A stretch of 64,000 bases of DNA from Spirochaetota bacterium (GTDB lineage: Bacteria; Spirochaetota; GWE2-31-10; JAFGQB01): the NCBI GenBank assembly GCA_016935915.1, contig JAFGQB010000058.1:2496-66495 (forward strand). Reading direction: 5' to 3'. The position numbers and the translations under genes are program-made. The notes beneath the pieces are model-generated. The model had not been told where the DNA came from. It saw nothing but the letters and a program-made list of their open reading frames with translations, and did no database searches. The first letter of the stretch is position 1; each line of letters opens with the position of its first letter. Shown in pieces: positions 35,428 to 63,472 of the stretch.

Positions 35428-38127
35428 TTGAAAGAAAAAATAATTGAAAAATTCGAAACAATGCTCAATGAAGAAAAATGGACAAGAGCTACAATTAATA
35501 ATTATACTATTACAAATTTTGAAAAATTAAATGAGCTGATTAATGAATTTAAAATAAATAACATGCTCAACGAAATTAAGGACATCGGTGATGAATATTT
35601 AAAGCATAATAAAAATTCTATAGTTGCTTTGTACGTCAATTCAATCATTCAGCTTGAAGAAAAAATCATAGATGAACTTATGATCTACAGTTTAATAAAA
35701 ATATTTTCAGATAATTTAAAATGGAATATTGTTGAATATTTATGTTTAAAAGCTCTTACTTATGTAGAAGATAAAATATTATTAAAAACTTTAATTACAA
35801 CATATATTAATCTAAATAGAAAAGATGAATTGCCCCCGCTTTGGGAAAGATTAATAAAAGTTGATTATGAAGAAGCGGAAATTGTTGTTAATCTGGCTAA
35901 GATAAGAGAAGAAAACAATGAAATTGAAGATGCTGTTACCTACTATAAAAAGGCTATAAACAGATTTATTTTATCTAAGAACTTTATACAGGTTGAAGAA
36001 CTTTGGAAAAAACTCTTAACTTTTGAAAACATCGGTAATGATTACTATTTTAATTTGGATCAAAAGATTTCAAAAAACTTCAGTATTGAAAGATCTATTG
36101 AACTTTTAAAATTATTATATCAGAATACAATTGCTAAGGACGATTATGATTCCAGTATAAAAGTCTTAAAACTCATATTGGATAAATCAAATTCTGATGA
36201 ACTGGCAAGAAAAGAAATAGTAAACATCTATAGAAAAAAATACAAAGATCATTCTCAACTTGAAGAATATATAAGAATCAGCAATCTTGAAGGCTCTTGG
36301 AGAAATATATTTGATGCATTAGACAGTTTTGAAAAACATATAGCTTTTGATAAAGGAAATTTTGTTTATCACAGAAGCTGGGGTATAGGAAGAATTGTAG
36401 ATGTTTCAAAAGATATTTTTACAATTAATTTTCAAAATAAAAAAGAACATAAAATGTCTCTAAAAATGGCATTAAGTTCATTACAGATACTTCCAAAGAA
36501 TCATATATGGATTTTAAAATTAAAAAATATTGATTTATTAAAGAAAAAAGTCAAGGAAGATATTCTCTGGGCATTAAAAATAATTATACAAAGTTACAAT
36601 AATCAGGCTACTTTAAAAAATATACAGGAAGAACTTGTTCCGGATGTAATACAAGAATCAAAATGGTCATCATGGTGGAATCAGGCAAAAAAAATACTTA
36701 AAACTGATCCTACTTTTGGAACCAGCATGAATTCCAACAATACATTTGAAGTAAGGGAAAAACCCCAAACATTTGAAGAAAAAACCTTTGAATCTTTTAA
36801 AAATGCCAGAGATTATGGTCAAAGATTAAATTTAATTCTTGATTATCTAGAATATACAGAACCAGAACCCGACCCTGACTTTCTTGAAGAAATGCTTTCT
36901 TATTTTTCATCCTTTTTAAATTCAAAAAACAACGTTAATGAAAATACTATAATAAGTTATATACTTGTAAAAGATGTGATAACCAAATATACTTTTATCA
37001 AACAGTCTATTCCCTATTCTTTCAATGATTATTTTATTAATTTAGAAGATCCTATTAAAATTTATTCAGAATTGCCAACATCTGATTTTAAAAAGGAATT
37101 TTTAATCCAGATAAAAAAATCAACTGATGAGTGGATTGATTTTTTTATAAAATTATTTTATCTTTTCCCAAATAAATTCATTTATGATGAAATCTTATAT
37201 AAAGATTTTAGTATTATTGAAAAAATAATAAAAGATTTAATTACCCGATATAAAGAATATTCAGATGCATTCTTTTGGATCGTTACAAATGTTCTTGAAA
37301 AAAATTTAATTGAAAAACTCAGCATTAATATTGATAATATAGTTTTTTCAGTGCTTCATTTGATAGAAATTACAACAAAGAACATAAATAATAAAAAAGA
37401 ACTAGTTAAAAATAAAAGACTTGTTAAACAGTTAAAAGATTATCTTACAAACAACAATTTTTTAATTAATTATATAGAAAAAGCTGATAAGGAATTTTCA
37501 AAAAGGCTCTATGGAATTATTGATGAATTGATTTATTTAGACAGTGAATATGTTGTCATGATTAAGGATAAAATCGCCAAACTCTATCCGGATATTGATG
37601 CTGATAAAGTTTTAAAATTTGACAGCAAAATATCAAAGTTAAGTATAGGTGATAAAATTCTTACAACTCAAGAAAGTTATGAAAGAGTATACAAGGAAAT
37701 GATTCATATAAAAGATATTGAGATACCTGAAAACTCCAAAGAAATAGGTTTTGCAATGGAAAAGGGGGACTTAAGAGAAAACGCGGAATATAAGGCTGCT
37801 AAAGAACAACAGACTTTTCTTAATAATAAACTTAACAAATTAATGAATGATCTTTCAAAAGTTCAGATTATCAAAATATCAGATATATCTGGTGATACTA
37901 TAAGTTTCGGTACAAAAGTTAAACTAAATGATTTAATACAAAATAAGGACATTGAATATACAATATTGGGACCATGGGAATCACAAACTGAAAAAAATAT
38001 TATATCTTATCAATCACCATTGGGATTAAATTTATTGGATAAAAAAATAAATGAAGAAGTAAAGTTCTCAATTAATAATAAAGAATATAATTACTTAGTG
38101 AAAGAAATAAATATAGCTGATTTTTAA
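35428..38127 (+). CDS. greA: Extended transcription elongation factor GreA (about 750-aa N-terminal extension plus C-terminal GreA module)
   Basis: 899 aa. TTG start with AGGAG 6 nt upstream. The C-terminal ~150 aa is a GreA module (KGDLRENAEYKAAKEQQ coiled coil, then FGTKVKL...ILGPWES...ISYQSPLG globular domain). Confidence 0.85.
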   Translation: MKEKIIEKFETMLNEEKWTRATINNYTITNFEKLNELINEFKINNMLNEIKDIGDEYLKHNKNSIVALYVNSIIQLEEKIIDELMIYSLIKIFSDNLKWNIVEYLCLKALTYVEDKILLKTLITTYINLNRKDELPPLWERLIKVDYEEAEIVVNLAKIREENNEIEDAVTYYKKAINRFILSKNFIQVEELWKKLLTFENIGNDYYFNLDQKISKNFSIERSIELLKLLYQNTIAKDDYDSSIKVLKLILDKSNSDELARKEIVNIYRKKYKDHSQLEEYIRISNLEGSWRNIFDALDSFEKHIAFDKGNFVYHRSWGIGRIVDVSKDIFTINFQNKKEHKMSLKMALSSLQILPKNHIWILKLKNIDLLKKKVKEDILWALKIIIQSYNNQATLKNIQEELVPDVIQESKWSSWWNQAKKILKTDPTFGTSMNSNNTFEVREKPQTFEEKTFESFKNARDYGQRLNLILDYLEYTEPEPDPDFLEEMLSYFSSFLNSKNNVNENTIISYILVKDVITKYTFIKQSIPYSFNDYFINLEDPIKIYSELPTSDFKKEFLIQIKKSTDEWIDFFIKLFYLFPNKFIYDEILYKDFSIIEKIIKDLITRYKEYSDAFFWIVTNVLEKNLIEKLSINIDNIVFSVLHLIEITTKNINNKKELVKNKRLVKQLKDYLTNNNFLINYIEKADKEFSKRLYGIIDELIYLDSEYVVMIKDKIAKLYPDIDADKVLKFDSKISKLSIGDKILTTQESYERVYKEMIHIKDIEIPENSKEIGFAMEKGDLRENAEYKAAKEQQTFLNNKLNKLMNDLSKVQIIKISDISGDTISFGTKVKLNDLIQNKDIEYTILGPWESQTEKNIISYQSPLGLNLLDKKINEEVKFSINNKEYNYLVKEINIADF

Positions 38128-53086: not shown

Positions 53087-55192
53087 ATGAAAAGCGAAAA
53101 AGCAAGTACCATTTACGGGGAATTAACATTCAATAAAACCAGGATGAAAGAACGTCTGAGTAAAGTTGTTTACGAAAAATTAATTGCTACTATTGAAAAT
53201 GAAGAACCACTGGACCATTCTATAGCTTATGATGTGGCGCATGCCATGAAAGAATGGGCAATGGACAACGGCGCAACTCATTTTACCCACTGGTTTCAGC
53301 CTCAAAGAGGAGGAACAGCCGAAAAACATGATGCGTTCATCAGTTATGATGACGATGGTGAAATAATTGAAAAATTCTCAGCTAACCAGCTTATTCAGTC
53401 CGAACCGGATGCGTCAAGCTTTCCATCAGGCGGAATAAGATCAACTTTTGAAGCCAGAGGCTACACTGCATGGGATCCAACCTCACCTGCTTTTTTAATA
53501 AAAGCGGAAGACACCTCAACTTTAGTTATTCCATCGGTTTATATGTCATGGACAGGTGAAGTCCTTGATATAAAGACGCCATTATTAAGATCACAAAAAG
53601 CAGTTAAAGACAGCTGTTTCAAACTGCAGAAACTTTTAGGAAACAGACTTGCAAAAAGAATAAAAGTTTATGCAGGTCCTGAACAGGAATACTTTTTAGT
53701 TTCAAAAGATCTTTATGACACAAGACCTGATTTGCATGTATGCGGTAAAACTTTGTTCGGCGCTGCACCTGCAAAAGGACAGCAGATGGAAGATCATTAT
53801 TTCGGCTCTATTAAAGATAAGGTTTTTGTATTTATGGAAGACCTTGACAGAGAACTTTACAGACGAGGAATACCAGCAAAAACAAGACATAATGAAGTAT
53901 CTCCCAATCAGTTTGAAATTGCACCGCTTTATGAAGAGGCAAATTTAGCAATAGATCATAATCTTCAGCAGATGGAAATTATGAAAAAAGTTGCAGAAAA
54001 ACACGGCATGGTTATGTTATTGAATGAAAAACCCTTTAAAGGTGTTAATGGTTCGGGAAAACATTTAAATTGGTCAATCGGCGATAATACAGGCGCCAAT
54101 TATCTTGAACCTTCGAAATCTCCTCTTAAAAATTTGAGTTTTTTAATTACAATCGGAGCAATCTTAAAAGGCGTTGATAAATTCGGCGGCTTGTTGAGAG
54201 CAAGTATAGCTGACGCAAATAATGATTACAGACTAGGTGCCAATGAAGCTCCTCCAGCCATCATGTCTGTCTATCTTGGAGAATATCTTGATGCAATTTT
54301 AAACGAAATAGAAGGCATCAGCACTTTTACTGAAAATAAAATAGCACATATTAATTCAGGAGTACAAAATTTACCGAGAGTATCCAAAGATATTTCCGAC
54401 AGAAACAGAACCAGTCCTATAGCATTTACAGGCAATAAATTTGAATTCAGGGCAGTGGGTTCAAGCCAGAATTGCGCAGAACCGGCAACCATATTAAATC
54501 TGATACTATGTTACGGTTATGATTATATTTATGAAAAATTAATAAAAATGAACGGAGATGTAAAAACAAATGCATTCAAGCTTCTAAAGGAAATATTTCA
54601 GGAAACAAAACATGTAAGATTTGAAGGTAATAACTATTCTGAAGATTGGCACAAAGAAGCTTTAAAAAGAAATCTGCCTAATGCAAAAAATACACCTATT
54701 GCACTTGAATATTTTTTAAAACCAGAGACAGTTGAACTTTTTGAAAAATATAAAATATTATCAAAAAGAGAACTTCATTCAAAAATCGAAATAAAACTTG
54801 AAAGTTACGTGAAAATAAGAGAAATAGAATATAAAACCGCAATAAATATCGCTAAAACAATGATACTGCCTGCAACAGCCAGACATTTAACTGATATGGC
54901 AAAAGCTGCAGGAGCAGTTGCATCTTCAGGTTTGACATCTAAAGTGTTGATAGATGAAGTAAAATCATTAGATTCTATATTGTCCCAGATCAAAAACAAT
55001 ACAGTAGAATTTGAGAAAACAGTATCTGAATGTTTTTCTGAAATTGATTTACACAAAAAAGCACTTAAAATAGCTGACAAGGGTGAGAATGGACTGGAAA
55101 AATTAAGAGAAGCAGTAGATACAGCAGAACTTGTAATTGCTGATGATCTATGGCCTATGTCAAAATATCAGGAATTATTGACAATTTTATAA
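53087..55192 (+). CDS. glnN: Glutamine synthetase type III
   Basis: 701 aa. GSIII-type N-terminus (HFTHWFQPQRGGTAEKHDAF, EPDASSFPSGGIRSTFEARGYT) and catalytic region (HNEVSPNQFEIAP, NGSGKHLNWS, RLGANEAPPAIMS). AGGAG RBS. Confidence 0.95.
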   Translation: MKSEKASTIYGELTFNKTRMKERLSKVVYEKLIATIENEEPLDHSIAYDVAHAMKEWAMDNGATHFTHWFQPQRGGTAEKHDAFISYDDDGEIIEKFSANQLIQSEPDASSFPSGGIRSTFEARGYTAWDPTSPAFLIKAEDTSTLVIPSVYMSWTGEVLDIKTPLLRSQKAVKDSCFKLQKLLGNRLAKRIKVYAGPEQEYFLVSKDLYDTRPDLHVCGKTLFGAAPAKGQQMEDHYFGSIKDKVFVFMEDLDRELYRRGIPAKTRHNEVSPNQFEIAPLYEEANLAIDHNLQQMEIMKKVAEKHGMVMLLNEKPFKGVNGSGKHLNWSIGDNTGANYLEPSKSPLKNLSFLITIGAILKGVDKFGGLLRASIADANNDYRLGANEAPPAIMSVYLGEYLDAILNEIEGISTFTENKIAHINSGVQNLPRVSKDISDRNRTSPIAFTGNKFEFRAVGSSQNCAEPATILNLILCYGYDYIYEKLIKMNGDVKTNAFKLLKEIFQETKHVRFEGNNYSEDWHKEALKRNLPNAKNTPIALEYFLKPETVELFEKYKILSKRELHSKIEIKLESYVKIREIEYKTAINIAKTMILPATARHLTDMAKAAGAVASSGLTSKVLIDEVKSLDSILSQIKNNTVEFEKTVSECFSEIDLHKKALKIADKGENGLEKLREAVDTAELVIADDLWPMSKYQELLTIL

Positions 55193-55328: not shown

Positions 55329-56759
55329 ATGAACAAGATCAGTGAATTAAATTACAATGATATAATAAATCTTCTTCAAAAAAATGAAATATCATGCAAG
55401 GAATTGATCGAAGATGCCGTAGATCAAATAAATAAATATGATAAGATCATTGAATCATATATTTCAATATTTGATAAAAAGGAACTTATTAAAAAAGCCA
55501 TAGAAAGTGATAAAAGATGGAAAAACAAAATGCCGATGAGCCTGATCGATGGCATCCCTATAGCTGTAAAAGATAACATCCATGTTAAAGGCATAAATAC
55601 CACATGCGGATCAAACATCTTAAAAAATTACAATCCACCTTTTAATGCTACGGTAACTGAATCAATAATATCTGGCGGAGGAATAATAATCGGTAAAACC
55701 AATCTTGATGAATTTGCCATGGGGTCAACTACAGAAACTTCAGCTTTTTTGCACTCCAAAAATCCGTGGAATCCAGATAAGGTTGCAGGCGGCTCTTCAG
55801 GAGGTTCAGCAGCCGCAGTATCCTCAGGAATGGCTGTATTGGCTTTAGGCTCAGACACAGGAGGGTCTATCAGACAGCCTGCATCATTTTGCGGAGTTAC
55901 AGGATTAAAGCCTACTTATGGGCTGGTTTCAAGATACGGACTGGTTGCATATGCATCTTCGCTTGATCAGATCGGACCGATATCAAAGGATATATATGGT
56001 CTTGCGGTTTTATTGAACCTTATATCAGGTTTTGATAAAAACGATTCTACTTCGATAAATGCAATAAAAAAAGATTATACAAAATTAATTGGCAAAGATA
56101 TTAAAAATAAAAAAATTGCTGTATTTCCAGAATTATATAAAGAAGGTATTTCATCAGAAGTGCATGATAATTTTATTAAAACACTGGATTTACTTCAAAA
56201 TCAAGGCGCTGTAATCAAAGAAATATCCTTCCCTGCCCTTCAATATGTCATTTCTACATATTATTTTATAGCAACAGCAGAAGCAAGCTCAAACTTATCA
56301 CGATATGACGGGGTAAAATACGGATACCGCAGTCAAAAACAGGAAAATTATGAACAGATGCTCTATTCTACACGTTCCAATGGTTTCGGCAAAGAAGTAA
56401 AAAAAAGAATAATATTGGGAAGTTTTGTATTATCATCAGGATATTATGACGAATACTATAGAAAAGCACAAAAGATCAGAAAATATATAATGGATGAATT
56501 GAAAAAAGTCTTCATTGATTTTGATGCAATTGCCATGCCCGCAACTCCGGATATTGCTTATGATCTCAATGAGAGCATTAATGATCCTCTTAAAATGTAT
56601 TTGTCAGATGTAACAACAGTCCTGGCAAATTTAGCCGGAGTTCCGGCAATATCAATACCTTCAGGTGTCATCAATAATATGCCTATTGGCATTCAATTAA
56701 TGGGAAGACCACTTGAAGAGGATGTTTTGTTTCAAATAAGTAAGAAAATAACTGATGAT
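55329..56759 (+). other. GatA (amidase-signature glutaminase) domain of the fusion
   Basis: Amidase signature and Ser-cisSer-Lys triad context are present. Length matches stand-alone GatA (~480 aa). Confidence 0.9.
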
Positions 56760-58208
56760 ATAAAAATCGATTTTACTCCTGATCTTGAAAGATTAAAAAC
56801 TTTTAACTTTTCAGGTAAAAAATTCAAAAAAAATGAAGAAACAGAACAGCCAACAGTTATATATTCAAAGGATAAAATAAAGCAAATTTCGAAATCTTAT
56901 AATAACAGAACAATTAGTATTAACCGTGTTTTATGCAATGAATTAAAAGATCATATCAACAGATATGTCTGTTTATCAGGATGGATCCATAAAATCAACA
57001 GTTTAGGAGGCATTGAATTTTTCATATTAAGGGACAGAACAGGCATGACACAGCTTGTCATAGAATCCAATATCAATACCGAAAAAATCACCCCGGAAAC
57101 CGTAGTTGAAATAAAAGGACTGGCAGCAAAAGAGGAAAGAAGTCCTTATGAAAATATAGAAATTAAAGTAAACGAAATCAAAATACTTTCATTTGCAAAC
57201 AACAACATACCCCTGAATATTTATGCTTCATATGATAACATTAATCTTCCAACAATTTTAGAAAACAGACCAATTTCAATACGAAACACAAAAACATTGA
57301 AAATATTCAAAATACAGTCAGAGTTCATAAGACTTTTTTCAGAATATTTAAGAAATAATAATTTTACAGAAATTAAAACACCAAAATTAATATCAAGCGG
57401 CACTGAGGGAGGAACAAATATTTTTGAAGTTAAATATTTTGAAAAGAATGCATTTTTGGCTCAATCACCTCAGTTTTATAAACAAATAATGGTAGGCAGC
57501 GGTTTTGAAAGAGTATTTGAAATAGGTCCTGTTTTCAGAGCCGAAATGCATAATACTAACCGCCATTTAAATGAATATACAAGCATGGATATTGAAATGG
57601 GATTCATCAATGATGAACAGGATATCATTGATATGCAGGAAGGATTAATAAAATATATGTTCAAAGAAATTATCAAATGCCAAAGGGAAATCCTTGATGA
57701 ATTTAATGTTGAAATTCTTATACCTGATAATATTCCAAGGATTCATTTTCTGGAAGCATTAAACATAGCAGAACAATCAGGCATTTCTGATATGGACGGT
57801 GACATTTCACCGGAAGGAGAAAGGGTAATATGTGATTTTATGGAAAAAGAAAAAAAGTCTTCATTTGTTTATATAATCGGGTACCCGATGAAAAAACGAC
57901 CTATGTATACTATGCCTGATGAAAGACTTCCCGGTTATTCAAGATCTTTTGACCTTTTATTTAAAGGTCTGGAGATAACAACAGGAGGTCAGCGTATTCA
58001 TGATTATAATATGCTTAAAAAAAGCATGAAAAAAAAAGGATTTAATCCAAAGGAATTTAAAGATTATCTGCAATGTTTTGAATTCGGAATGCCGCCTCAC
58101 GGAGGTCTTGGCATGGGCTTAGAGAGAATTACCATGAAGCTGTTAAATTTAAAAAATATCAGGGAAGCAACTCTCTTTCCCAGAGACAGAAACAGGATCT
58201 CACCTTAA
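55329..58208 (+). CDS. gatA: Fusion protein: Asp/Glu-tRNA amidotransferase subunit A (GatA) followed by archaeal-type aspartyl-tRNA synthetase
   Basis: Uninterrupted 959-codon ORF. Residues 1-477 are GatA (AVKDNI, GGSSGGSAAAVSSG, GSDTGGSIRQP). Residues ~529-959 are class IIb AspRS (OB fold, FRAEMHNTNRHLNEYTSMDIE, GGQRIH, GMPPHGGLGMGLERI, FPRDRNRISP). Confidence 0.9.
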   Translation: MNKISELNYNDIINLLQKNEISCKELIEDAVDQINKYDKIIESYISIFDKKELIKKAIESDKRWKNKMPMSLIDGIPIAVKDNIHVKGINTTCGSNILKNYNPPFNATVTESIISGGGIIIGKTNLDEFAMGSTTETSAFLHSKNPWNPDKVAGGSSGGSAAAVSSGMAVLALGSDTGGSIRQPASFCGVTGLKPTYGLVSRYGLVAYASSLDQIGPISKDIYGLAVLLNLISGFDKNDSTSINAIKKDYTKLIGKDIKNKKIAVFPELYKEGISSEVHDNFIKTLDLLQNQGAVIKEISFPALQYVISTYYFIATAEASSNLSRYDGVKYGYRSQKQENYEQMLYSTRSNGFGKEVKKRIILGSFVLSSGYYDEYYRKAQKIRKYIMDELKKVFIDFDAIAMPATPDIAYDLNESINDPLKMYLSDVTTVLANLAGVPAISIPSGVINNMPIGIQLMGRPLEEDVLFQISKKITDDIKIDFTPDLERLKTFNFSGKKFKKNEETEQPTVIYSKDKIKQISKSYNNRTISINRVLCNELKDHINRYVCLSGWIHKINSLGGIEFFILRDRTGMTQLVIESNINTEKITPETVVEIKGLAAKEERSPYENIEIKVNEIKILSFANNNIPLNIYASYDNINLPTILENRPISIRNTKTLKIFKIQSEFIRLFSEYLRNNNFTEIKTPKLISSGTEGGTNIFEVKYFEKNAFLAQSPQFYKQIMVGSGFERVFEIGPVFRAEMHNTNRHLNEYTSMDIEMGFINDEQDIIDMQEGLIKYMFKEIIKCQREILDEFNVEILIPDNIPRIHFLEALNIAEQSGISDMDGDISPEGERVICDFMEKEKKSSFVYIIGYPMKKRPMYTMPDERLPGYSRSFDLLFKGLEITTGGQRIHDYNMLKKSMKKKGFNPKEFKDYLQCFEFGMPPHGGLGMGLERITMKLLNLKNIREATLFPRDRNRISP
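56913..58205 (+). other. Archaeal/eukaryal-type AspRS domain of the fusion
   Basis: Anticodon-binding OB fold plus class II motifs 1-3. The C-terminal FPRDRNRISP is characteristic of AspRS rather than AsnRS. Confidence 0.85.
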
Positions 58209-58228
58209 TACTATTACGAGGATATGAT

Positions 58229-58510
58229 ATGAAGAAAAATAAATATCTTGATTTTGAAAACTTAATAAAATTGTCAGCAATTACTTTAGATGATGATGAG
58301 AGAAAAATATTTCAAAAAGAATTGGAAGATTTTTTGAATTATTCCGAAATAATAAATAATTTCCCGGTTGAAAATTTAAAAGCCGCTAGTCATGCTGTTG
58401 AAAAAGAAGTATATTTTAGAGATGATATAGTGAAAAAATGGGATAATCTTGACAAATTATTAAACAACGCTCCTCTTATCGAGGATACGAGTTTCATTGT
58501 ACCTCCGCAA
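58229..58510 (+). other. GatC-like domain
   Basis: About 94 aa with the size and motif order of stand-alone GatC. No stop codon separates it from GatB. Confidence 0.75.
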
Positions 58511-60016
58511 AAAGGAAGAACAGCAGACGAAAACGGTGCACATGATATGTCAAATGCAAAAATCATTGACCATGAAGAATACGAAGCAGTTATAGGTCTT
58601 GAAGTACATGCTCAATTAAAAACAAAATCAAAACTTTTTTGTTCATGCTCAACCGAATTTGGCAAAAAACCCAATTCAAACACATGTCCTGTATGTACAG
58701 GTCAACCCGGTTCACTTCCTGTTTTAAACATGGAAGCTGTAAACATGGCAATTAAAGCAGGGCTTAGCGCAAATTGTCAAATAAATATGCATTCCGTTTT
58801 TGCACGGAAAAACTATTTTTATCCCGATCTTCCAAAAGCATATCAAATTTCACAATTTGAAGAGCCGATATGTTCAAAAGGTTATATAGAAATTGAAATT
58901 GATGGTAAAATTAAAAAAATCAGACTTAACAGGATACACATGGAAGAAGATGCAGGCAAGCTTGTTCATATAGGCGCTCCCGGTATTTGGGGGTCAAAGG
59001 CAAGCGCTGTCGATTTTAATAGGACTGGCATTCCTTTAATAGAAATAGTAACAGAACCGGATATAAACAGTGCCAAAGAGGCAAAAGAATACGTTATCAT
59101 GCTCAGAGCTATACTTGTATCACTTGGCATCTGTGACGGAAATATGGAGGAAGGAAGTTTAAGATGTGATGCCAATATTTCAATAAGGAAAAAAGGGGAA
59201 ACAATATTAGGGACAAAAACAGAAATAAAAAACATGAACTCATTTAAGGCAATTGAAAGAGCAATAGATTTTGAAATAAAAAGACAAAAAAAAATGAAAA
59301 AATTCGGTTTTGAAATATTTCAGGAGACAAGACTCTGGGATGAAAGTTCTCAAAAAACAATTTTAATGCGGTCAAAAGAAGAGTCGCATGATTACAGATA
59401 TTTCCCTGATCCGGATCTTCTTCCGTTGGTTTTAACAAAAGACTGGATAGAATCATATAATAAAGTATTACCTGAATTGCCGTTGAAAAGGAAAAAGAAA
59501 TATATTGAAAAATATCAATTTAGCGAAGATGAAGCAAAGCTTTTTATGACAAATCCGGATTATGCGGATTATTTTGAAGAAGTATTAAAATTTTATGATA
59601 AGCCAAGAAATTGTGCAAACTGGTTTTTCAACGAAATACTCTGTTATGCTTCAAGCGGAATTAAAAATATAATTATAACACCCTATGATCTTGGACAGTT
59701 TTTATTAAAAATAGATAATGATGAAATTAGCGGTAAGATCGGAAAATATGTTATTGAAAAAGCATTTGAAAGTAAAAAAAGCTTGAATCAGATTATCGAA
59801 GAAGAAAATTTAAAACAGATCACCGACAACAGCACTATAGAAAAAATAATTATTAAGATACTTGAAAAAAATAAAAATGAAGTTGAATCATATAAAAACG
59901 GTAAAACCAATTTATTTGCGTTTTTTGTAGGACAGGTTATGAAAGAGACAAAAGGAAAGGCAAATCCCAAACTTGTCAACAAAGTATTGAAATCAAAGTT
60001 AGATGAAATTCAATAA
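58229..60016 (+). CDS. gatB: Fusion protein: GatC-like N-terminal domain followed by Asp/Glu-tRNA amidotransferase subunit B (GatB)
   Basis: 595 aa. Residues 1-94 resemble GatC (LSAITLDDDERKIFQKELEDFLNYSEIIN...VYFRDD...LLNNAP...FIVP). From residue ~118 it is canonical GatB (YEAVIGLEVHAQLKT, CPVCTGQPGSLPVLN, NRTGIPLIEIVTEPD, C-terminal YqeY-like tail). GAGGA RBS. Confidence 0.88.
   Translation: MKKNKYLDFENLIKLSAITLDDDERKIFQKELEDFLNYSEIINNFPVENLKAASHAVEKEVYFRDDIVKKWDNLDKLLNNAPLIEDTSFIVPPQKGRTADENGAHDMSNAKIIDHEEYEAVIGLEVHAQLKTKSKLFCSCSTEFGKKPNSNTCPVCTGQPGSLPVLNMEAVNMAIKAGLSANCQINMHSVFARKNYFYPDLPKAYQISQFEEPICSKGYIEIEIDGKIKKIRLNRIHMEEDAGKLVHIGAPGIWGSKASAVDFNRTGIPLIEIVTEPDINSAKEAKEYVIMLRAILVSLGICDGNMEEGSLRCDANISIRKKGETILGTKTEIKNMNSFKAIERAIDFEIKRQKKMKKFGFEIFQETRLWDESSQKTILMRSKEESHDYRYFPDPDLLPLVLTKDWIESYNKVLPELPLKRKKKYIEKYQFSEDEAKLFMTNPDYADYFEEVLKFYDKPRNCANWFFNEILCYASSGIKNIIITPYDLGQFLLKIDNDEISGKIGKYVIEKAFESKKSLNQIIEEENLKQITDNSTIEKIIIKILEKNKNEVESYKNGKTNLFAFFVGQVMKETKGKANPKLVNKVLKSKLDEIQ
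58574..60013 (+). other. GatB domain
   Basis: Full-length GatB core plus helical and YqeY-like tail domains. Confidence 0.92.
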
Positions 60017-60017
60017 A

Positions 60018-61136
60018 TTATAAAACTTCTGATAAAATTTCAACGATCTTTTTGCTTGTCATCCCGTCGCCGTAAGGATTTTTCGCCTTTGACATTTTAT
60101 TATATATTTTTTTATTTCTCAATAATAGTGTTGTTTCTTTAATGATTTTATCATAATTTGTACCGACTAATTTAGCATTCCCTGCTTTTACCCCTTCCAT
60201 TCTTTCTGTAACATCCCTCATAACTAAAACAGGTTTGCCAAGGGACGGAGCCTCTTCCTGTATCCCTCCCGAATCAGTCAGAACAATGTATGATCTGTTC
60301 ATAAGATATATTAAATATGGATAATCAAGTGGTTCAATCAGATGGATATTTTTAATGCTCTTTAAAATGGTTTTAACGGTTTTTTGAACATTGGGATTTA
60401 GATGAACCGGATAGATAATTTCAACATCACTGTTTTTTTCAGCAATAAATTTCAATGCATTACAAATATTTTCAAACGGCTTGCCGAAACTTTCTCTTCT
60501 GTGACCTGTTACTAAAATTATTTTTTTGGAAAAGTCAGTAAAATTAAAAAAATCCAAATAATCATTCTCTTTTGTACTTTTTATTATATCCAGACCTAAA
60601 AATAAGGCATCAATCACAGTATTGCCTACTACCCAGATATTTTTGAATATATTTTCTCTGTTAAGATTTTTTTTTGCTTTTAATGTCGGTGCAAAATGAA
60701 AATCTGCAATATGACCTGTTAAAGTACGGTTTATCTCCTCTGGAAAAGGTGAATATTTATTATTGCTTCTTAAGCCTGCTTCCAGATGAGCAACAGATAT
60801 TTTATGATAATAACTTGCTAGAGTTGATACTAAAACCGTAGTGGTATCGCCCTGAACAAAAACAAGATCAGGTTTATAGTTACTTATGATTTTATTTACA
60901 CCTAATAATCCATCAGATGTAATGTCAAAAAGCGTTTGATCTGTCTTCATTAAATTTAGATCAAAATCAGGTTTTATTTTAAAAAAATCAAGTATTTGAT
61001 CAAGCATCTGTCTATGCTGGGCTGTGATGCAGACCTTTATTTCAAATTTATCTTTATGTTCATAGAATTCTTTTATTAAAGGAGACATTTTAATTGCTTC
61101 AGGTCTGGTGCCGAAAATAAACAATATTTTTTTCAT
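60018..61136 (-). CDS. wecB: UDP-N-acetylglucosamine 2-epimerase (non-hydrolysing)
   Basis: 372 aa. KILFIFGTRPEAIKMSPLI, HLEAGLRS, DSGGIQEEAPSLGKPVLVMR. Confidence 0.93.
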   Translation of the reverse strand: MKKILFIFGTRPEAIKMSPLIKEFYEHKDKFEIKVCITAQHRQMLDQILDFFKIKPDFDLNLMKTDQTLFDITSDGLLGVNKIISNYKPDLVFVQGDTTTVLVSTLASYYHKISVAHLEAGLRSNNKYSPFPEEINRTLTGHIADFHFAPTLKAKKNLNRENIFKNIWVVGNTVIDALFLGLDIIKSTKENDYLDFFNFTDFSKKIILVTGHRRESFGKPFENICNALKFIAEKNSDVEIIYPVHLNPNVQKTVKTILKSIKNIHLIEPLDYPYLIYLMNRSYIVLTDSGGIQEEAPSLGKPVLVMRDVTERMEGVKAGNAKLVGTNYDKIIKETTLLLRNKKIYNKMSKAKNPYGDGMTSKKIVEILSEVL

Positions 61137-61189
61137 GTTTTTATCCTTAAGTTTTAAAAAATCTAATTTTTTAAACCGTTTAATAAAAA

Positions 61190-62200
61190 TTATAAAAAGT
61201 TCTTAATATTAAAAAGATTTATACTATTATAATATTTCGCCAAATATTCAAGGTTTTTTACAAAACTTTTCGATAGTTTTTTGGGATGTCCCACAGCAGT
61301 TAAAAAACTTCGATTTTGCTTATCAGTTTTTTTTAATAGTTTGATAAATAAGTTTGATGATAATCCGTCAAGTGACAAAGGCGCATATGTTTTTTTAAAT
61401 AAATTTATTATTTTTTTAATTCTTTTTGATTTTTCACCATCATCAATTGGCAGAGGTTTACCATCACCTTTTTCATTTTCATATTTTTTTAAAAAATTAT
61501 AATCCAGGGTTAACTTGAATTTTTTTATTTTAATAGTTGTCAGAGGAATTTCATAAAAGGACCCTTCCGACTCTATCATTGGATCATTATGAAACTTCCA
61601 GAAAGCTTTTTTTGAATCCACACAAGAAAAATCAAAGTAATTATATTTTCCATGATTAATCATACCGGGTACAACGCTGAAATCATATATCAAACCATTA
61701 TTAATAAAAAGTTCCTTTAATGTTTCAAAAGGCTGAACTGCCCAGCCGCCTGCCCTGAAAGCTTTAATTTTATAATCAGATTTAACATCACTTAATGTTT
61801 CACTCAATAAGTTTAAGCCTTCATTAAAGACTTCCTTTAAATGATCTTTGTCCAGAGAATGAACTCTGTACTTTTCAAAAGATTTAAATCCCCATTCTCT
61901 CTCATTTATCTGATATGCATCTAGCCATTGAGGATGGAGGTGAAATTCAACATTATGCCCTGAGTCTGTTATTCTTTTGATTTGATCCGTGACTTTTAAA
62001 AAATCCCTGTGCTTGTGTTTTTTTAAGGTTAAAATATAAAGAGAATCGGCAAAAAATATAGCTTTTGAATTATATCGATTCAATATTTCCAATATTATAT
62101 TTGCGGGTTCAATTATGCATTTTTCAACAGTACCGCTTGATGTACCCAATGAAAGTTCATAATCAAAAGTTATAATTACATTTTTATCTGTTTTATTCAT
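61190..62200 (-). CDS. Polysaccharide deacetylase-like (carbohydrate esterase) protein, tentative
   Basis: 336 aa. VIITFDYE start and HNVEFHLHP histidine motif are reminiscent of the NodB-type/related deacetylase fold. Lies in a glycan locus. Confidence 0.4.
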   Translation of the reverse strand: MNKTDKNVIITFDYELSLGTSSGTVEKCIIEPANIILEILNRYNSKAIFFADSLYILTLKKHKHRDFLKVTDQIKRITDSGHNVEFHLHPQWLDAYQINEREWGFKSFEKYRVHSLDKDHLKEVFNEGLNLLSETLSDVKSDYKIKAFRAGGWAVQPFETLKELFINNGLIYDFSVVPGMINHGKYNYFDFSCVDSKKAFWKFHNDPMIESEGSFYEIPLTTIKIKKFKLTLDYNFLKKYENEKGDGKPLPIDDGEKSKRIKKIINLFKKTYAPLSLDGLSSNLFIKLLKKTDKQNRSFLTAVGHPKKLSKSFVKNLEYLAKYYNSINLFNIKNFL

Positions 62201-62206
62201 AATAAA

Positions 62207-63472
62207 TTATAATTTTTCAATAAGCTCAATATATTTTTCCGATAATTTTTTATATGAAAAATCCTTTATATCCTTTTCGGATTCAGTTTCATAATAAGGA
62301 TTTCTTTCCCAAAGTTTAAATATTTTAAAAATACAATTTTTGATACCCTGATAATTATCCTTATAAATAACAGAATATCCGAGCTTCTTACTGTTTATCA
62401 ATTGCTCGGTATCTCCGCCGAAATTAAGCGACAAAATAGGACGTTTTAGCATTGCGTACTCGAATATTTTGATTGAAATTATAAATTTCTGTGTCTCCGG
62501 CATGAAATGTAATGCCGTAAATGAATTATAAATTTCATTAAATAATCTGTCCTGAGAAATAAAATCATTAATAATTATATGACCATCTTCAATTAATCTT
62601 TTGTATCCTGCCCGAATGCACTTACTGTCATTCAAAGACAGGAATAATTTTATCTTTATTTCTTGCAATTTTCCAATGTTATCATTTACAACATCCAAAA
62701 AAGAAATCATGGGCTTATCTCTGTTGTTGCTCAAACTTCCTGCATAAATAAAGCTGAAATCCCTTTTGATTTTTCCCTTGTCTCTTGTTATTTCATCGAT
62801 CGATTCCTCATCAAAACCGTTATGAATTACTTCAACCTTTATCTTCTTATTTTTAATTTTATCACTTAAAATTTCAGCCAATCCTTTGGATATTGTTACC
62901 AATGCATTGCAGTTATTCAATGCAAATTCTTCAAATTTTAAACTTAAATTTTTTTGCCATTTGAATGGAAAATATCTGAACTCATTCCATTCATCACGAA
63001 AATCCTGAATTAATTTAATATCAGGAAGTTTTCTTTTTAAAATTCCAGCCCAATAATTTACCATGTAAGGTCCGCCGGTTGCTATTATCACTTCAATATT
63101 TTCTTTTTTTAAAAGTTTCAGACAGTACGGCATTAAAATTTTACCCCAGTCCTGCGCTTCATCGATGAAATAAAAAAAGTTCACGATTTTTAATATCTGA
63201 TTTCTGATTTTTGATAAAAAACGTCCGGAAAAATCATCAGAAAATTTTTTATATTTAAAATTATGGAAATAATTGGATTTAATCCTGTGAATTTTAATAT
63301 TTTCATTATCTATGTCATTGTGCCAGGGCTGATCAAACTGATTTTTCCATCTGACAGTAATTACATGAACAATGTATTTTTGCGACAGATATTTAACGAA
63401 CTTTGTCCATCTGTATGCACCGACATCAGAGTAAGGAGGAAATTTAAAAGAAATTAATAATAAATTTTTCAT
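62207..63472 (-). CDS. Glycosyltransferase (GT-B fold, GT4-like), tentative
   Basis: 421 aa. N-terminus KNLLLISFKFPPYSDVGAYRW and C-terminal region IKIFEYAMLKRPILS typical of GT-B enzymes. ATGA overlap with the upstream flippase gene. Confidence 0.55.
   Translation of the reverse strand: MKNLLLISFKFPPYSDVGAYRWTKFVKYLSQKYIVHVITVRWKNQFDQPWHNDIDNENIKIHRIKSNYFHNFKYKKFSDDFSGRFLSKIRNQILKIVNFFYFIDEAQDWGKILMPYCLKLLKKENIEVIIATGGPYMVNYWAGILKRKLPDIKLIQDFRDEWNEFRYFPFKWQKNLSLKFEEFALNNCNALVTISKGLAEILSDKIKNKKIKVEVIHNGFDEESIDEITRDKGKIKRDFSFIYAGSLSNNRDKPMISFLDVVNDNIGKLQEIKIKLFLSLNDSKCIRAGYKRLIEDGHIIINDFISQDRLFNEIYNSFTALHFMPETQKFIISIKIFEYAMLKRPILSLNFGGDTEQLINSKKLGYSVIYKDNYQGIKNCIFKIFKLWERNPYYETESEKDIKDFSYKKLSEKYIELIEKL

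What the first reader, a model, noticed from the sequence alone, without database searches (positions are those of the whole stretch)
58229..60016. GatC fused in frame to GatB, so the amidotransferase plus synthetase is encoded by two genes instead of four
The ORF starting 20 nt after the GatA-AspRS gene begins with ~94 residues that have the length and motif order of stand-alone GatC (LSAITLDDDERKIFQKELEDFLNYSEIIN, AASHAVEKEVYFRDD, LLNNAPLIEDTSFIVP). It continues without a stop through a short linker (QKGRTADENGAHDMSNAKIIDHEE) into a canonical full-length GatB (YEAVIGLEVHAQL...). In characterised GatCAB, GatC is a separate ~95-aa protein that wraps the GatA/GatB interface. Together with the neighbouring fusion, this locus would build the whole ND-AspRS/GatCAB machine from two polypeptides. 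An in-frame ATG at 58547 (Met107) could additionally give a free GatB, but no Shine-Dalgarno sequence is visible within normal spacing upstream of it.
Basis: partly seen in the sequence, partly recalled or inferred. Interest (0 to 1): 0.7.

Follow-up and report, generated by a model that had tools for sequence, protein, structure and literature searches.

The report
Conserved natural GatC–GatB fusion protein
In this AT-rich spirochaete-like genome, the small GatC subunit of the enzyme that makes Asn-tRNA and Gln-tRNA is built into the N-terminus of GatB; the neighbouring gene fuses GatA to an aspartyl-tRNA synthetase, so two proteins replace the usual four, and this layout is conserved across a whole uncultured lineage but was not found described in the papers searched.

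Summary
ORF 58229..60016 (595 aa) has three parts. Residues 1-96 are a GatC domain that scores above the curated cut-offs of TIGR00135 and PF02686. Residues ~97-116 are a linker. Residues 117-595 are a full-length GatB.

It is not a sequencing artefact. 93 full-length homologues (51-84% identity) from independent assemblies keep the same open frame. In a rough distance tree of the GatB domain they form one clade, and six of the seven "short" members are mis-called starts, frameshifts, gaps or contig ends.

The linker is poorly conserved in sequence (15% identity) but tightly constrained in length: 19-24 aa in 92 of 93. Met107 occurs only in this window. Eleven of 14 loci have no in-frame start codon in the linker, and none has a Shine-Dalgarno-like core there.

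The upstream gene (55329..58208) is a conserved fusion of GatA and a non-discriminating, archaeal-type AspRS. It lies directly upstream in 8 of 12 distinct loci.

The carriers are Spirochaetota MAGs plus Candidatus Uabimicrobium (Planctomycetota).

Databases name these proteins simply "GatB" or "GatA", and I found no paper describing either natural fusion. I rate it a new variant of a known system. No protein-level data exist, and a stand-alone gatC elsewhere in the genome cannot be excluded.

The parts
55329..58208 (+). gatA-aspS fusion gene (959 aa). GatA amidase domain: aa 15-477 (nt 55371-56759). Tether with a variable core: aa ~490-509. Archaeal-type non-discriminating AspRS: aa 532-959 (nt 56922-58205).
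   Evidence: TIGR00132 gatA scores 590.8 bits and NF003483 aspartate--tRNA(Asn) ligase 559.2 bits, both above cut-off. Pfam finds Amidase, tRNA_anti-codon and tRNA-synt_2. 66 full-length homologues exist; the linker core is 12% identical against 64-71% in the domains. K81, S156 and S180 are invariant, as are the class-II motifs FRAE (736-739) and GGLGxGLER (925-933). In the AF2 model, residues 495-511 have pLDDT below 50 and pTM is 0.54.
58209..58228 (+). 20-nt intergenic spacer holding a Shine-Dalgarno-like GAGGA (58218-58222), 6 nt before the ATG at 58229.
   Evidence: Read directly from the sequence.
58229..60016 (+). gatC-gatB fusion gene (595 aa plus stop codon).
   Evidence: ORF list, domain hits and 93 full-length homologues.
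58229..58516 (+). GatC domain, aa 1-96. It ends in the conserved motif (S/T)(Y/F)(I/L)VPPQKGRT.
   Evidence: TIGR00135 covers aa 9-92 and PF02686 covers aa 20-91. It aligns to A. aeolicus GatC residues 10-89 of 94, and without gaps to S. aureus GatC 8-93. F35, Y38, D66 and P92 are invariant, and R64 is at least 90% conserved. AF2 predicts helices 9-16 and 22-43 and a strand at 88-91.
58517..58576 (+). Inter-domain linker, aa 97-116 (ADENGAHDMSNAKIIDHE...). It includes the non-conserved Met107 codon at 58547-58549.
   Evidence: Mean pairwise identity is 15%. The distance from VPP to YE is 19-24 aa in 92 of 93 proteins. The composition is rich in E, G, K, A, S, T and D. pLDDT is below 50 for residues 97-104. 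No conserved internal start codon or SD exists.
58577..60013 (+). GatB, aa 117-595: cradle/catalytic domain (aa 121-408), helical domain, and YqeY tail domain (aa 447-591).
   Evidence: NF004014 scores 666 bits. Residue Y118 aligns to residue 2-3 of free-standing GatB chains. Foldseek matches 3ip4_B with E 1.5e-49 and TMt 0.85.

Best explanation
The gene encodes a single 68-kDa polypeptide. A functional GatC module is tethered to the N-terminus of a complete GatB by a flexible spacer of about 20 residues whose length is constrained.

Shown here: the domain identities, the continuous reading frame, the conservation of the architecture, the lack of a conserved internal start, and the co-occurrence with the GatA-AspRS fusion.

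Inferred: the GatC module does its usual job, as an extended belt around the GatA/GatB interface. Its R64/D66 loop and C-terminal strand (aa 88-91) would dock on the GatB part of the same chain. Its two N-terminal helices would reach over to the GatA domain of the neighbouring GatA-AspRS protein. Because class II AspRS is a dimer, the two gene products would assemble into a (GatA-AspRS)2(GatC-GatB)2 particle. That particle would be a covalently pre-wired asparagine transamidosome. tRNA(Asn) would be charged with Asp by the AspRS module and amidated to Asn-tRNA(Asn) in GatB, using ammonia tunnelled from the GatA glutaminase site.

The fusion would fix subunit stoichiometry at 1:1 and make assembly independent of a small, largely unstructured free subunit.
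For: Domain identity: GatC and GatB both score above curated cut-offs. 41 of 42 homologous N-terminal domains match TIGR00135.

Constraint on the GatC part: its mean pairwise identity is 49%, the same as the GatB C-terminal half (51%), against 15% in the linker. R64 and D66 are conserved. They sit, in an ungapped alignment, opposite S. aureus GatC R64/D66, which contact GatB in the crystal structures (PMC4027206).

Frame continuity: the frame is continuous in 93 clusters from independent assemblies. The fused proteins form one clade in a neighbour-joining (NJ) tree that excludes all 18 canonical GatB sequences. Six of the seven short members of that clade are annotation or assembly artefacts.

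No conserved internal initiation.

Structure: the AF2 model has mean pLDDT 83.5 and pTM 0.79. GatC residues 61-80 have pLDDT 84-90, the predicted GatC secondary structure is as expected, and the linker is disordered. Foldseek recovers GatB chains and, weakly, GatC chains.

Precedent: an engineered GatC-linker-GluRS chain was used for the T. maritima glutamine transamidosome crystal, 3AL0 chain C. In free GatCAB the C-terminal hairpin of GatC already pairs with a GatB hairpin (PMC7541841; PMC4027206).

Partner gene: GatA-AspRS is conserved and adjacent, and its catalytic residues are invariant.
Against: There is no protein-level evidence, such as size, N-terminus or activity.

The GatC-GatA contact and the distance spanned by the linker are therefore untested. 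The N-terminal GatC helices have only moderate confidence (pLDDT 65-87).

Only 64 kb of this genome could be searched for a separate gatC.

A selected GatC-GatA fusion in M. smegmatis is viable but mistranslates (PMC7541841), so covalent GatC fusions are not automatically neutral.

The Uabimicrobium members have lost R64, and the one tested (P0089) falls below the Pfam GatC threshold.
Confidence: 0.85

Rival explanations
1. Assembly or sequencing artefact: gatC and gatB are really separate genes, and a missed stop codon or frameshift joined them.
For: Single-contig metagenome data can carry such errors. One related noisy assembly (L012) does show a frameshift in the linker, and its GatA-AspRS is broken into three pieces.
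Against: 93 independent clusters keep the frame open through a linker that has diverged to 15% identity. Every locus inspected at the DNA level, apart from the noisy L012 and the gap-containing L004, is open across the junction.
Confidence: 0.01
2. The long ORF is real, but GatB is mainly made from an internal start (Met107 or another codon). The GatC-like region would then be a leader or a minor product.
For: An in-frame ATG exists at 58547. Older annotations of relatives-481-aa GatB proteins.
Against: Met107 is present in 1 of 93 proteins, and only 7 of 93 have any Met in the linker. Eleven of 14 loci have no ATG, GTG or TTG in the linker, and none has an SD-like core. The GatC part is as conserved as the GatB C-terminal half. 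The short annotations are mis-calls.
Confidence: 0.04
3. The fusion is translated as one chain but is then cleaved in the linker, giving ordinary free GatC and GatB.
For: The linker is disordered and exposed. The conserved PPQKGRT(G) motif at the domain boundary could in principle be a processing site.
Against: I know of no precedent for processing of GatCAB subunits in bacteria (own knowledge). The tight conservation of linker length (19-24 aa) is what a tether that must span a fixed distance would show; a cleavage site would not need it. Canonical GatC also ends a few residues after the VP motif, so the conserved motif is explained as the native GatC tail.
Confidence: 0.06
4. The N-terminal domain is a vestigial GatC relic, and a separate gatC elsewhere in the genome supplies the working subunit.
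For: The rest of the genome is not available. The Uabimicrobium copies are divergent: R64 is lost, and the one tested scores below the Pfam threshold.
Against: The GatC-defining residues are conserved across the clade and 41 of 42 domains match TIGR00135. There is no second GatC in the 64-kb window. In the exhaustive search with the GatC domain, the closest GatC-like proteins are fragments or frameshifted copies of fusions, and the best full-length free GatCs listed are at most about 40% identical.
Confidence: 0.04

Closest known systems
Canonical bacterial heterotrimeric GatCAB (e.g. S. aureus 3IP4/2DF4, A. aeolicus 3H0L)
   Same: It has the same three modules. GatB is 45-47% identical to the solved chains, with TMt 0.85-0.92. 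The GatC part aligns along its full length and keeps the R64/D66 pair and the C-terminal VP strand. The GatA catalytic residues are conserved.
   Different: GatC is not a separate ~95-aa subunit. It is joined through a spacer of about 20 aa to residue 2-3 of GatB. GatA carries an AspRS at its C-terminus. The gene order is gatA(-aspS) then gatC-gatB, not gatC-gatA-gatB.
Asn-transamidosome of Thermus thermophilus (3KFU) and Pseudomonas aeruginosa (4WJ3)
   Same: The protein parts list is the same: ND-AspRS plus GatC, GatA and GatB. The AspRS here is the short archaeal type without a GAD domain, like the T. thermophilus enzyme that forms the most stable complex (PMC3367201).
   Different: The known complexes are non-covalent and are held together by tRNA(Asn) acting as a scaffold. 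Here the synthetase is covalently tied to GatA, and GatC to GatB, so stoichiometry and proximity are fixed genetically.
Engineered GatC-linker-GluRS chain in the T. maritima glutamine transamidosome crystal (3AL0 chain C)
   Same: The C-terminus of GatC is extended by a linker into another protein of the pathway. This shows that the GatC C-terminus tolerates a tether.
   Different: That chain is artificial and is fused to the synthetase, not to GatB.
GatC-GatA fusion mutant of Mycobacterium smegmatis (PMC7541841)
   Same: It is a covalent fusion of GatC to a catalytic subunit, and it is viable.
   Different: It arose by selection in the laboratory from a 1-nt insertion. It is fused to GatA without an evolved linker, it raises mistranslation, and modelling suggests it pulls the GatC hairpin away from GatB. 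The natural GatC-GatB fusion would instead keep that hairpin next to GatB.
Variants of the small subunit: fungal GatF in GatFAB (4N0H) and the GatC-less GatAB of the Plasmodium apicoplast
   Same: They show that the third subunit is the evolutionarily flexible part of the enzyme (PMC4027206; the GatAB reference is cited in PMC6242988).
   Different: In those systems GatC is replaced or absent. Here a bona fide GatC is kept but fused.
Deinococcus GlnRS-YqeY chimera (PMC1865053)
   Same: It is another natural fusion between a synthetase and a module of the amidotransferase pathway.
   Different: It involves a different module (the YqeY tail, not GatC or GatA) and belongs to the direct pathway.

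Membership tests
GatC (TIGR00135 / PF02686) | The sequence matches the family model above the curated cut-off. | tested here: met
   TIGR00135 scores 55.9 bits (cut-off 47.1) and PF02686 scores 41 bits (cut-off 23) on aa 1-106. 41 of 42 homologous domains match.
GatC (TIGR00135 / PF02686) | Conserved Arg/Asp pair (S. aureus R64/D66) that contacts GatB. | tested here: met
   R64 is at least 90% conserved and D66 is invariant. The alignment to S. aureus GatC is ungapped, 8-93 to 8-93. The role of the pair is taken from PMC4027206.
GatC (TIGR00135 / PF02686) | Fold: two N-terminal helices, a long extended loop, and a C-terminal beta-strand. | tested here: met
   The AF2 model has helices 9-16 and 22-43, an extended stretch, and a strand at 88-91. 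Foldseek gives weak hits to GatC chains 2f2a_C and 2df4_C, E about 0.05. This is a prediction only.
GatC (TIGR00135 / PF02686) | A free-standing subunit of about 95 aa encoded by its own gene. | tested here: not met
   It is fused in frame to GatB with no stop codon and no conserved internal start. I therefore describe it as a GatC-homologous domain, not as a GatC subunit.
GatC (TIGR00135 / PF02686) | It encircles the GatA/GatB interface and stabilises GatA. | not testable with these tools
   This needs a complex model, a structure or biochemistry.
GatB (NF004014 / TIGR00133) | Equivalog model above cut-off, with cradle, helical and YqeY domains all present. | tested here: met
   NF004014 scores 666.3 bits (cut-off 414). 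GatB_N covers aa 121-408 and GatB_Yqey aa 447-591. Foldseek matches 3ip4_B at E 1.5e-49.
GatB (NF004014 / TIGR00133) | Kinase and transamidase activity on Asp-tRNA(Asn) and Glu-tRNA(Gln). | not testable with these tools
   The only evidence is sequence conservation, such as the invariant GxE125xH127 motif.
Asn-transamidosome (ND-AspRS + GatCAB + tRNA-Asn) | All four protein modules are present and co-encoded. | tested here: met
   GatA-AspRS and GatC-GatB are 20 nt apart. They are adjacent in L001, L004, L006, L008-L011 and L015.
Asn-transamidosome (ND-AspRS + GatCAB + tRNA-Asn) | The AspRS is non-discriminating, i.e. it also charges tRNA(Asn). | tested here: inconclusive
   NF003483 'aspartate--tRNA(Asn) ligase' scores 559 bits (cut-off 353) and TIGR00458 aspS_nondisc scores 441 bits (cut-off 368). 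This is assignment by model name; tRNA specificity has not been assayed.
Asn-transamidosome (ND-AspRS + GatCAB + tRNA-Asn) | The physical complex forms and channels Asp-tRNA(Asn); the organism depends on it (no AsnRS or asparagine synthetase). | not tested
   Only 64 kb of the genome is available, and it holds no tRNA genes.

The most novel reading that the evidence does not exclude
The two adjacent fusion genes encode an obligate, covalently pre-assembled asparagine transamidosome, (GatA-AspRS)2(GatC-GatB)2. It would not need tRNA(Asn) as an assembly scaffold and would hand Asp-tRNA(Asn) from synthetase to amidotransferase without release. It would behave as a self-contained two-gene cassette that has moved between phyla, from Spirochaetota to the planctomycete Ca. 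Uabimicrobium. This would be the first natural case in which an aminoacyl-tRNA synthetase and its tRNA-dependent amidotransferase are hard-wired together. It would also raise the question of how, or whether, the same particle still serves Glu-tRNA(Gln).
Probability: 0.4. Interest if true: 0.72.

Novelty: new variant of a known kind. Interest (0 to 1): 0.55.

Why it matters
GatC has been treated as a separate third subunit of every GatCAB, and transamidosomes as non-covalent assemblies scaffolded by tRNA.

A lineage-wide natural design that reduces ND-AspRS plus GatCAB to two polypeptides gives three things:

- **Topology.** It is genetic evidence that the C-terminus of GatC ends on GatB, within reach of the GatB N-terminus through a spacer of about 20 residues.
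- **A simpler experimental system.** Two proteins with fixed stoichiometry would make structural and kinetic work on substrate channelling and fidelity easier. They would also help address how one amidotransferase is shared between the Asn and Gln pathways.
- **A contrast case.** The mistranslating GatC-GatA fusion selected in mycobacteria can be compared with a natural fusion that has been retained across the lineage.

It also corrects annotation. Public records call these proteins plain "GatB" or "GatA", or truncate them to 471-481 aa.

Tried and rejected
- **Close relatives that looked unfused.** P0071, P0085, P0090, P0096, P0097 and P0099 all turned out to be artefacts: mis-called starts (L002, L011), a scaffold gap (L004), a frameshift in a noisy assembly (L012), or contig-end truncations (L013, L014). 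P0100 sits on a 1.7-kb contig and was not checked.
- **Short GatC-like top hits of the exhaustive search.** P0241-P0244 and P0283 are fragments or frameshifted copies of fusions, not free GatC proteins.
- **Scan of species-representative genomes.** The 42-sequence GatC alignment was too divergent for the tool. A narrower 8-sequence alignment found only six loci, all Spirochaetota MAGs, so the taxonomic census is incomplete.
- **Exhaustive representative search.** It could not count fusions, because clustering at 50% identity leaves only one fused representative in the list.
- **Linker geometry.** Model coordinates are not exposed, so I could not measure the distance the linker must span.
- **RNA and transcription signals.** There are no tRNA genes or Rfam matches in the window. 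The promoter and terminator scans were uninformative in this AT-rich DNA.
- **Literature.** Searches for GatC-GatB, GatCB, GatA-AspRS and "transamidosome" with "gene fusion" found no description of the natural fusions. The library does not hold most subscription-journal papers, so an earlier report cannot be excluded.
Full report
**1. What is in the sequence**

ORF 58229..60016 (+) is 595 aa long and begins at the first ATG after a stop codon. The upstream gene ends with TAA at 58206-58208. The 20-nt spacer holds GAGGA at 58218-58222, 6 nt before the ATG.

The N-terminal 106 aa score above the curated cut-offs of both GatC models. TIGR00135 gives 55.9 bits against a cut-off of 47.1 (E 4e-15, aa 9-92). 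PF02686 gives 41 bits against 23.

Residues 117-591 match the GatB equivalog NF004014 at 666 bits (cut-off 414). GatB_N covers aa 121-408 and GatB_Yqey covers aa 447-591.

Against PDB sequences, the GatC part aligns to residues 10-89 of the 94-aa A. aeolicus GatC, and without gaps to residues 8-93 of S. aureus GatC. Y118 aligns to residue 2-3 of free-standing GatB chains. Canonical GatC ends 5-7 residues after its VP motif. The material added between the two native proteins is therefore about 16-20 residues.

**2. It is not an artefact**

A search of 5.8 billion proteins returned, among the best 120 hits, 93 clusters of 575-640 aa. They cover 98-100% of the query at 51-84% identity, and most carry PF02686, PF02934 and PF02637 together. 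They come from NCBI, JGI, ENA and Logan assemblies.

In a rough neighbour-joining (NJ) tree of the GatB domain, all fused proteins fall in one clade of 101 sequences. That clade excludes all 18 canonical, unfused GatB proteins in the list.

Seven members of the clade looked unfused, and I checked six of them at the DNA level:
- two are mis-called starts inside 589-590-aa ORFs (L002, L011);
- one has a run of N at the junction (L004);
- one is a frameshift in an assembly whose GatA-AspRS is also broken into three pieces (L012);
- two are cut by contig ends, with the GatC tail and linker visible in frame (L013, L014).

The short GatC-like top hits of an exhaustive HMMER scan are likewise fragments or frameshifted copies of fusions.

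**3. Anatomy of the junction**

Mean pairwise identity across the 93 proteins:

| Region | Identity |
|---|---|
| GatC part | 49% |
| Linker core | 15% |
| GatB catalytic domain | 75% |
| GatB helical and YqeY half | 51% |

The GatC module is thus as constrained as the tRNA-binding half of GatB.

The distance between the conserved VPP and the YE that opens GatB is 19-24 residues in 92 of 93 proteins (median 22). This stretch is rich in E, G, K, A, S, T and D. Variable sequence with fixed length is what a tether that must span a set distance would show.

At the DNA level, 11 of 14 loci have no in-frame ATG, GTG or TTG in the linker. The three loci that do have one lack any SD-like core upstream. 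Internal initiation is therefore not a conserved feature.

**4. GatC hallmarks and structure**

F35, Y38, D66 and P92 are invariant, and R64 is at least 90% conserved. In the ungapped alignment, R64 and D66 face S. aureus GatC R64 and D66. [quoted passage not shown] The same paper and PMC7541841 state that the C-terminal strand or hairpin of GatC forms a sheet with a GatB hairpin. The native C-terminus of GatC therefore already lies on GatB.

AlphaFold2 with an 80-sequence alignment gave mean pLDDT 83.5 and pTM 0.79. The GatC part has helices 9-16 and 22-43, an extended stretch and a strand at 88-91. pLDDT is 84-90 for residues 61-80, which is the R64/D66 loop. pLDDT is below 50 for residues 97-104.

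Foldseek found GatB chains first (3ip4_B, E 1.5e-49) and, weakly, GatC chains.

As an inference, 20 residues can reach about 70 Å, which I judge enough to bridge the cradle domain.

**5. The neighbour and the "two genes instead of four" claim**

ORF 55329..58208 (959 aa) combines GatA (TIGR00132, 591 bits, aa 15-477) with a short, archaeal-type AspRS. The AspRS matches the models named aspartate--tRNA(Asn) ligase (NF003483, 559 bits) and aspS_nondisc (TIGR00458, 441 bits).

Sixty-six full-length homologues (53-86% identity) share the architecture. The domains are 63-71% identical. A tether core of about 20 aa (aa 490-509) is 12% identical and is disordered in the AF2 model, where pLDDT is below 50 for residues 495-511 and pTM is 0.54.

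K81, S156 and S180 are invariant. From my own knowledge, their spacing is that of the amidase Lys/cis-Ser/Ser triad. The class II motifs FRAE and GGLGxGLER are also invariant.

The two fused genes are adjacent in L001, L004, L006, L008-L011 and L015. L015 lies on a 4.8-Mb single contig. In L002/L003/L005 and in L007, gatA-aspS is not directly upstream.

**6. Who has it**

All named carriers are uncultured Spirochaetota MAGs, with two exceptions: Candidatus Uabimicrobium (Planctomycetota) and one MAG labelled Chrysiogenales.

The window itself looks spirochaetal. Its nearest homologues are Spirochaetota. It encodes an 899-aa protein with GreA only at the C-terminus, which I know as a spirochaete trait. 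Its GC content is 21-35%.

The Uabimicrobium proteins nest inside the fused clade, and both genes are adjacent there. This suggests transfer of the pair between phyla.

**7. Most likely mechanism**

Shown: one reading frame, bona fide GatC and GatB modules, a length-constrained flexible spacer, no conserved internal start, and a conserved partner fusion.

Inferred: the protein is made as one 68-kDa chain. Its GatC module docks its R64/D66 loop and C-terminal strand on its own GatB domain, and lays its N-terminal helices on the GatA domain of the partner protein. Class II AspRS dimerises, so this would give a (GatA-AspRS)2(GatC-GatB)2 particle. The AspRS module would charge tRNA(Asn) with Asp, and GatB would amidate it using ammonia from GatA.

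Background from PMC3367201 fits this picture. The archaeal-type ND-AspRS of T. thermophilus forms the most stable transamidosome. Organisms that must share GatCAB between AspRS and GluRS keep the complexes dynamic. A covalent GatA-AspRS link would commit the enzyme to the Asn branch, at least spatially.

**8. Comparison with what is known**

The parts are ordinary, and the architecture is what differs. Known GatCABs are heterotrimers. Fungi replace GatC with GatF. The Plasmodium apicoplast enzyme is a GatAB without GatC (reference cited).

A GatC-linker-GluRS chain exists only as a crystallisation construct, 3AL0 chain C.

A GatC-GatA fusion arose under selection in M. smegmatis and mistranslates. 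Its authors found no natural gatC-gatA fusion among about 500 operons.

I found no paper describing a natural GatC-GatB or GatA-AspRS fusion. The library lacks most subscription-journal papers, so an earlier report cannot be excluded.

Public records name these proteins plain GatB or GatA, "hypothetical protein", or truncate them.

**9. Verdict and limits**

This is a new architectural variant of a well-known enzyme system, conserved across a lineage.

Limits:
- there are no protein-level data;
- there is no model of the complex;
- the rest of this genome is unavailable, so a free gatC, asnS or glnS elsewhere cannot be excluded (one search covers only the window);
- the tree is a quick distance tree.

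Interest is moderate to fairly high for specialists in aminoacyl-tRNA synthesis, mainly because of the paired fusions.

Noticed in passing
P0201, P0207, P0237 (hits; not in the window): Natural GatC-GatA fusion proteins exist in metagenome assemblies. They are 589-591 aa, with GatC at aa ~20-90 and Amidase at aa ~125-567. A published survey of about 500 gatCAB operons found none (PMC7541841).
   Followed up: partly
window 53087..55192 (+): A type III glutamine synthetase (GSIII_N, Gln-synt_C and Gln-synt_C-ter domains) lies 136 nt upstream of the gatA-aspS gene on the same strand. A producer of glutamine thus sits next to a glutaminase that consumes it. The adjacency is not seen in the related loci that have enough upstream sequence.
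   Followed up: partly
L001 8001-9746 and 5128-7992 (Ca. Uabimicrobium sp.); P0089, P0091, P0095: The planctomycete Ca. Uabimicrobium carries both fused genes side by side. Its GatC-GatB proteins nest inside the Spirochaetota clade in the GatB-domain tree, which suggests inter-phylum transfer of the pair. The GatC part is divergent: R64 is replaced in all three, and P0089, the one scanned, falls below the Pfam threshold.
   Followed up: partly
L002 7674-9446; L011 3650-5419: Public annotations truncate the fused gene to 472-481 aa by starting inside or after the linker. The GatC-coding 330-350 nt is left unannotated.
   Followed up: yes
window 35428..38127 (+): An 899-aa protein carries GreA domains only at its C-terminus, aa 745-895. 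From my own knowledge, a long N-terminal extension on GreA is typical of spirochaetes, which fits the taxonomic placement of the window.
   Followed up: no
window 60018..63472 (-): Downstream, and convergent with gatC-gatB (1 nt between the ORF ends), lies a polysaccharide-synthesis cluster: a UDP-GlcNAc 2-epimerase, a weak polysaccharide-deacetylase-like protein and a family-4 glycosyltransferase.
   Followed up: no
P0223 (hit; not in the window): A 714-aa protein has a full Amidase (GatA) domain followed by only the last ~40 residues of GatB_N and then the YqeY domain. It is probably an assembly chimera or a deletion. It was not examined further.
   Followed up: no
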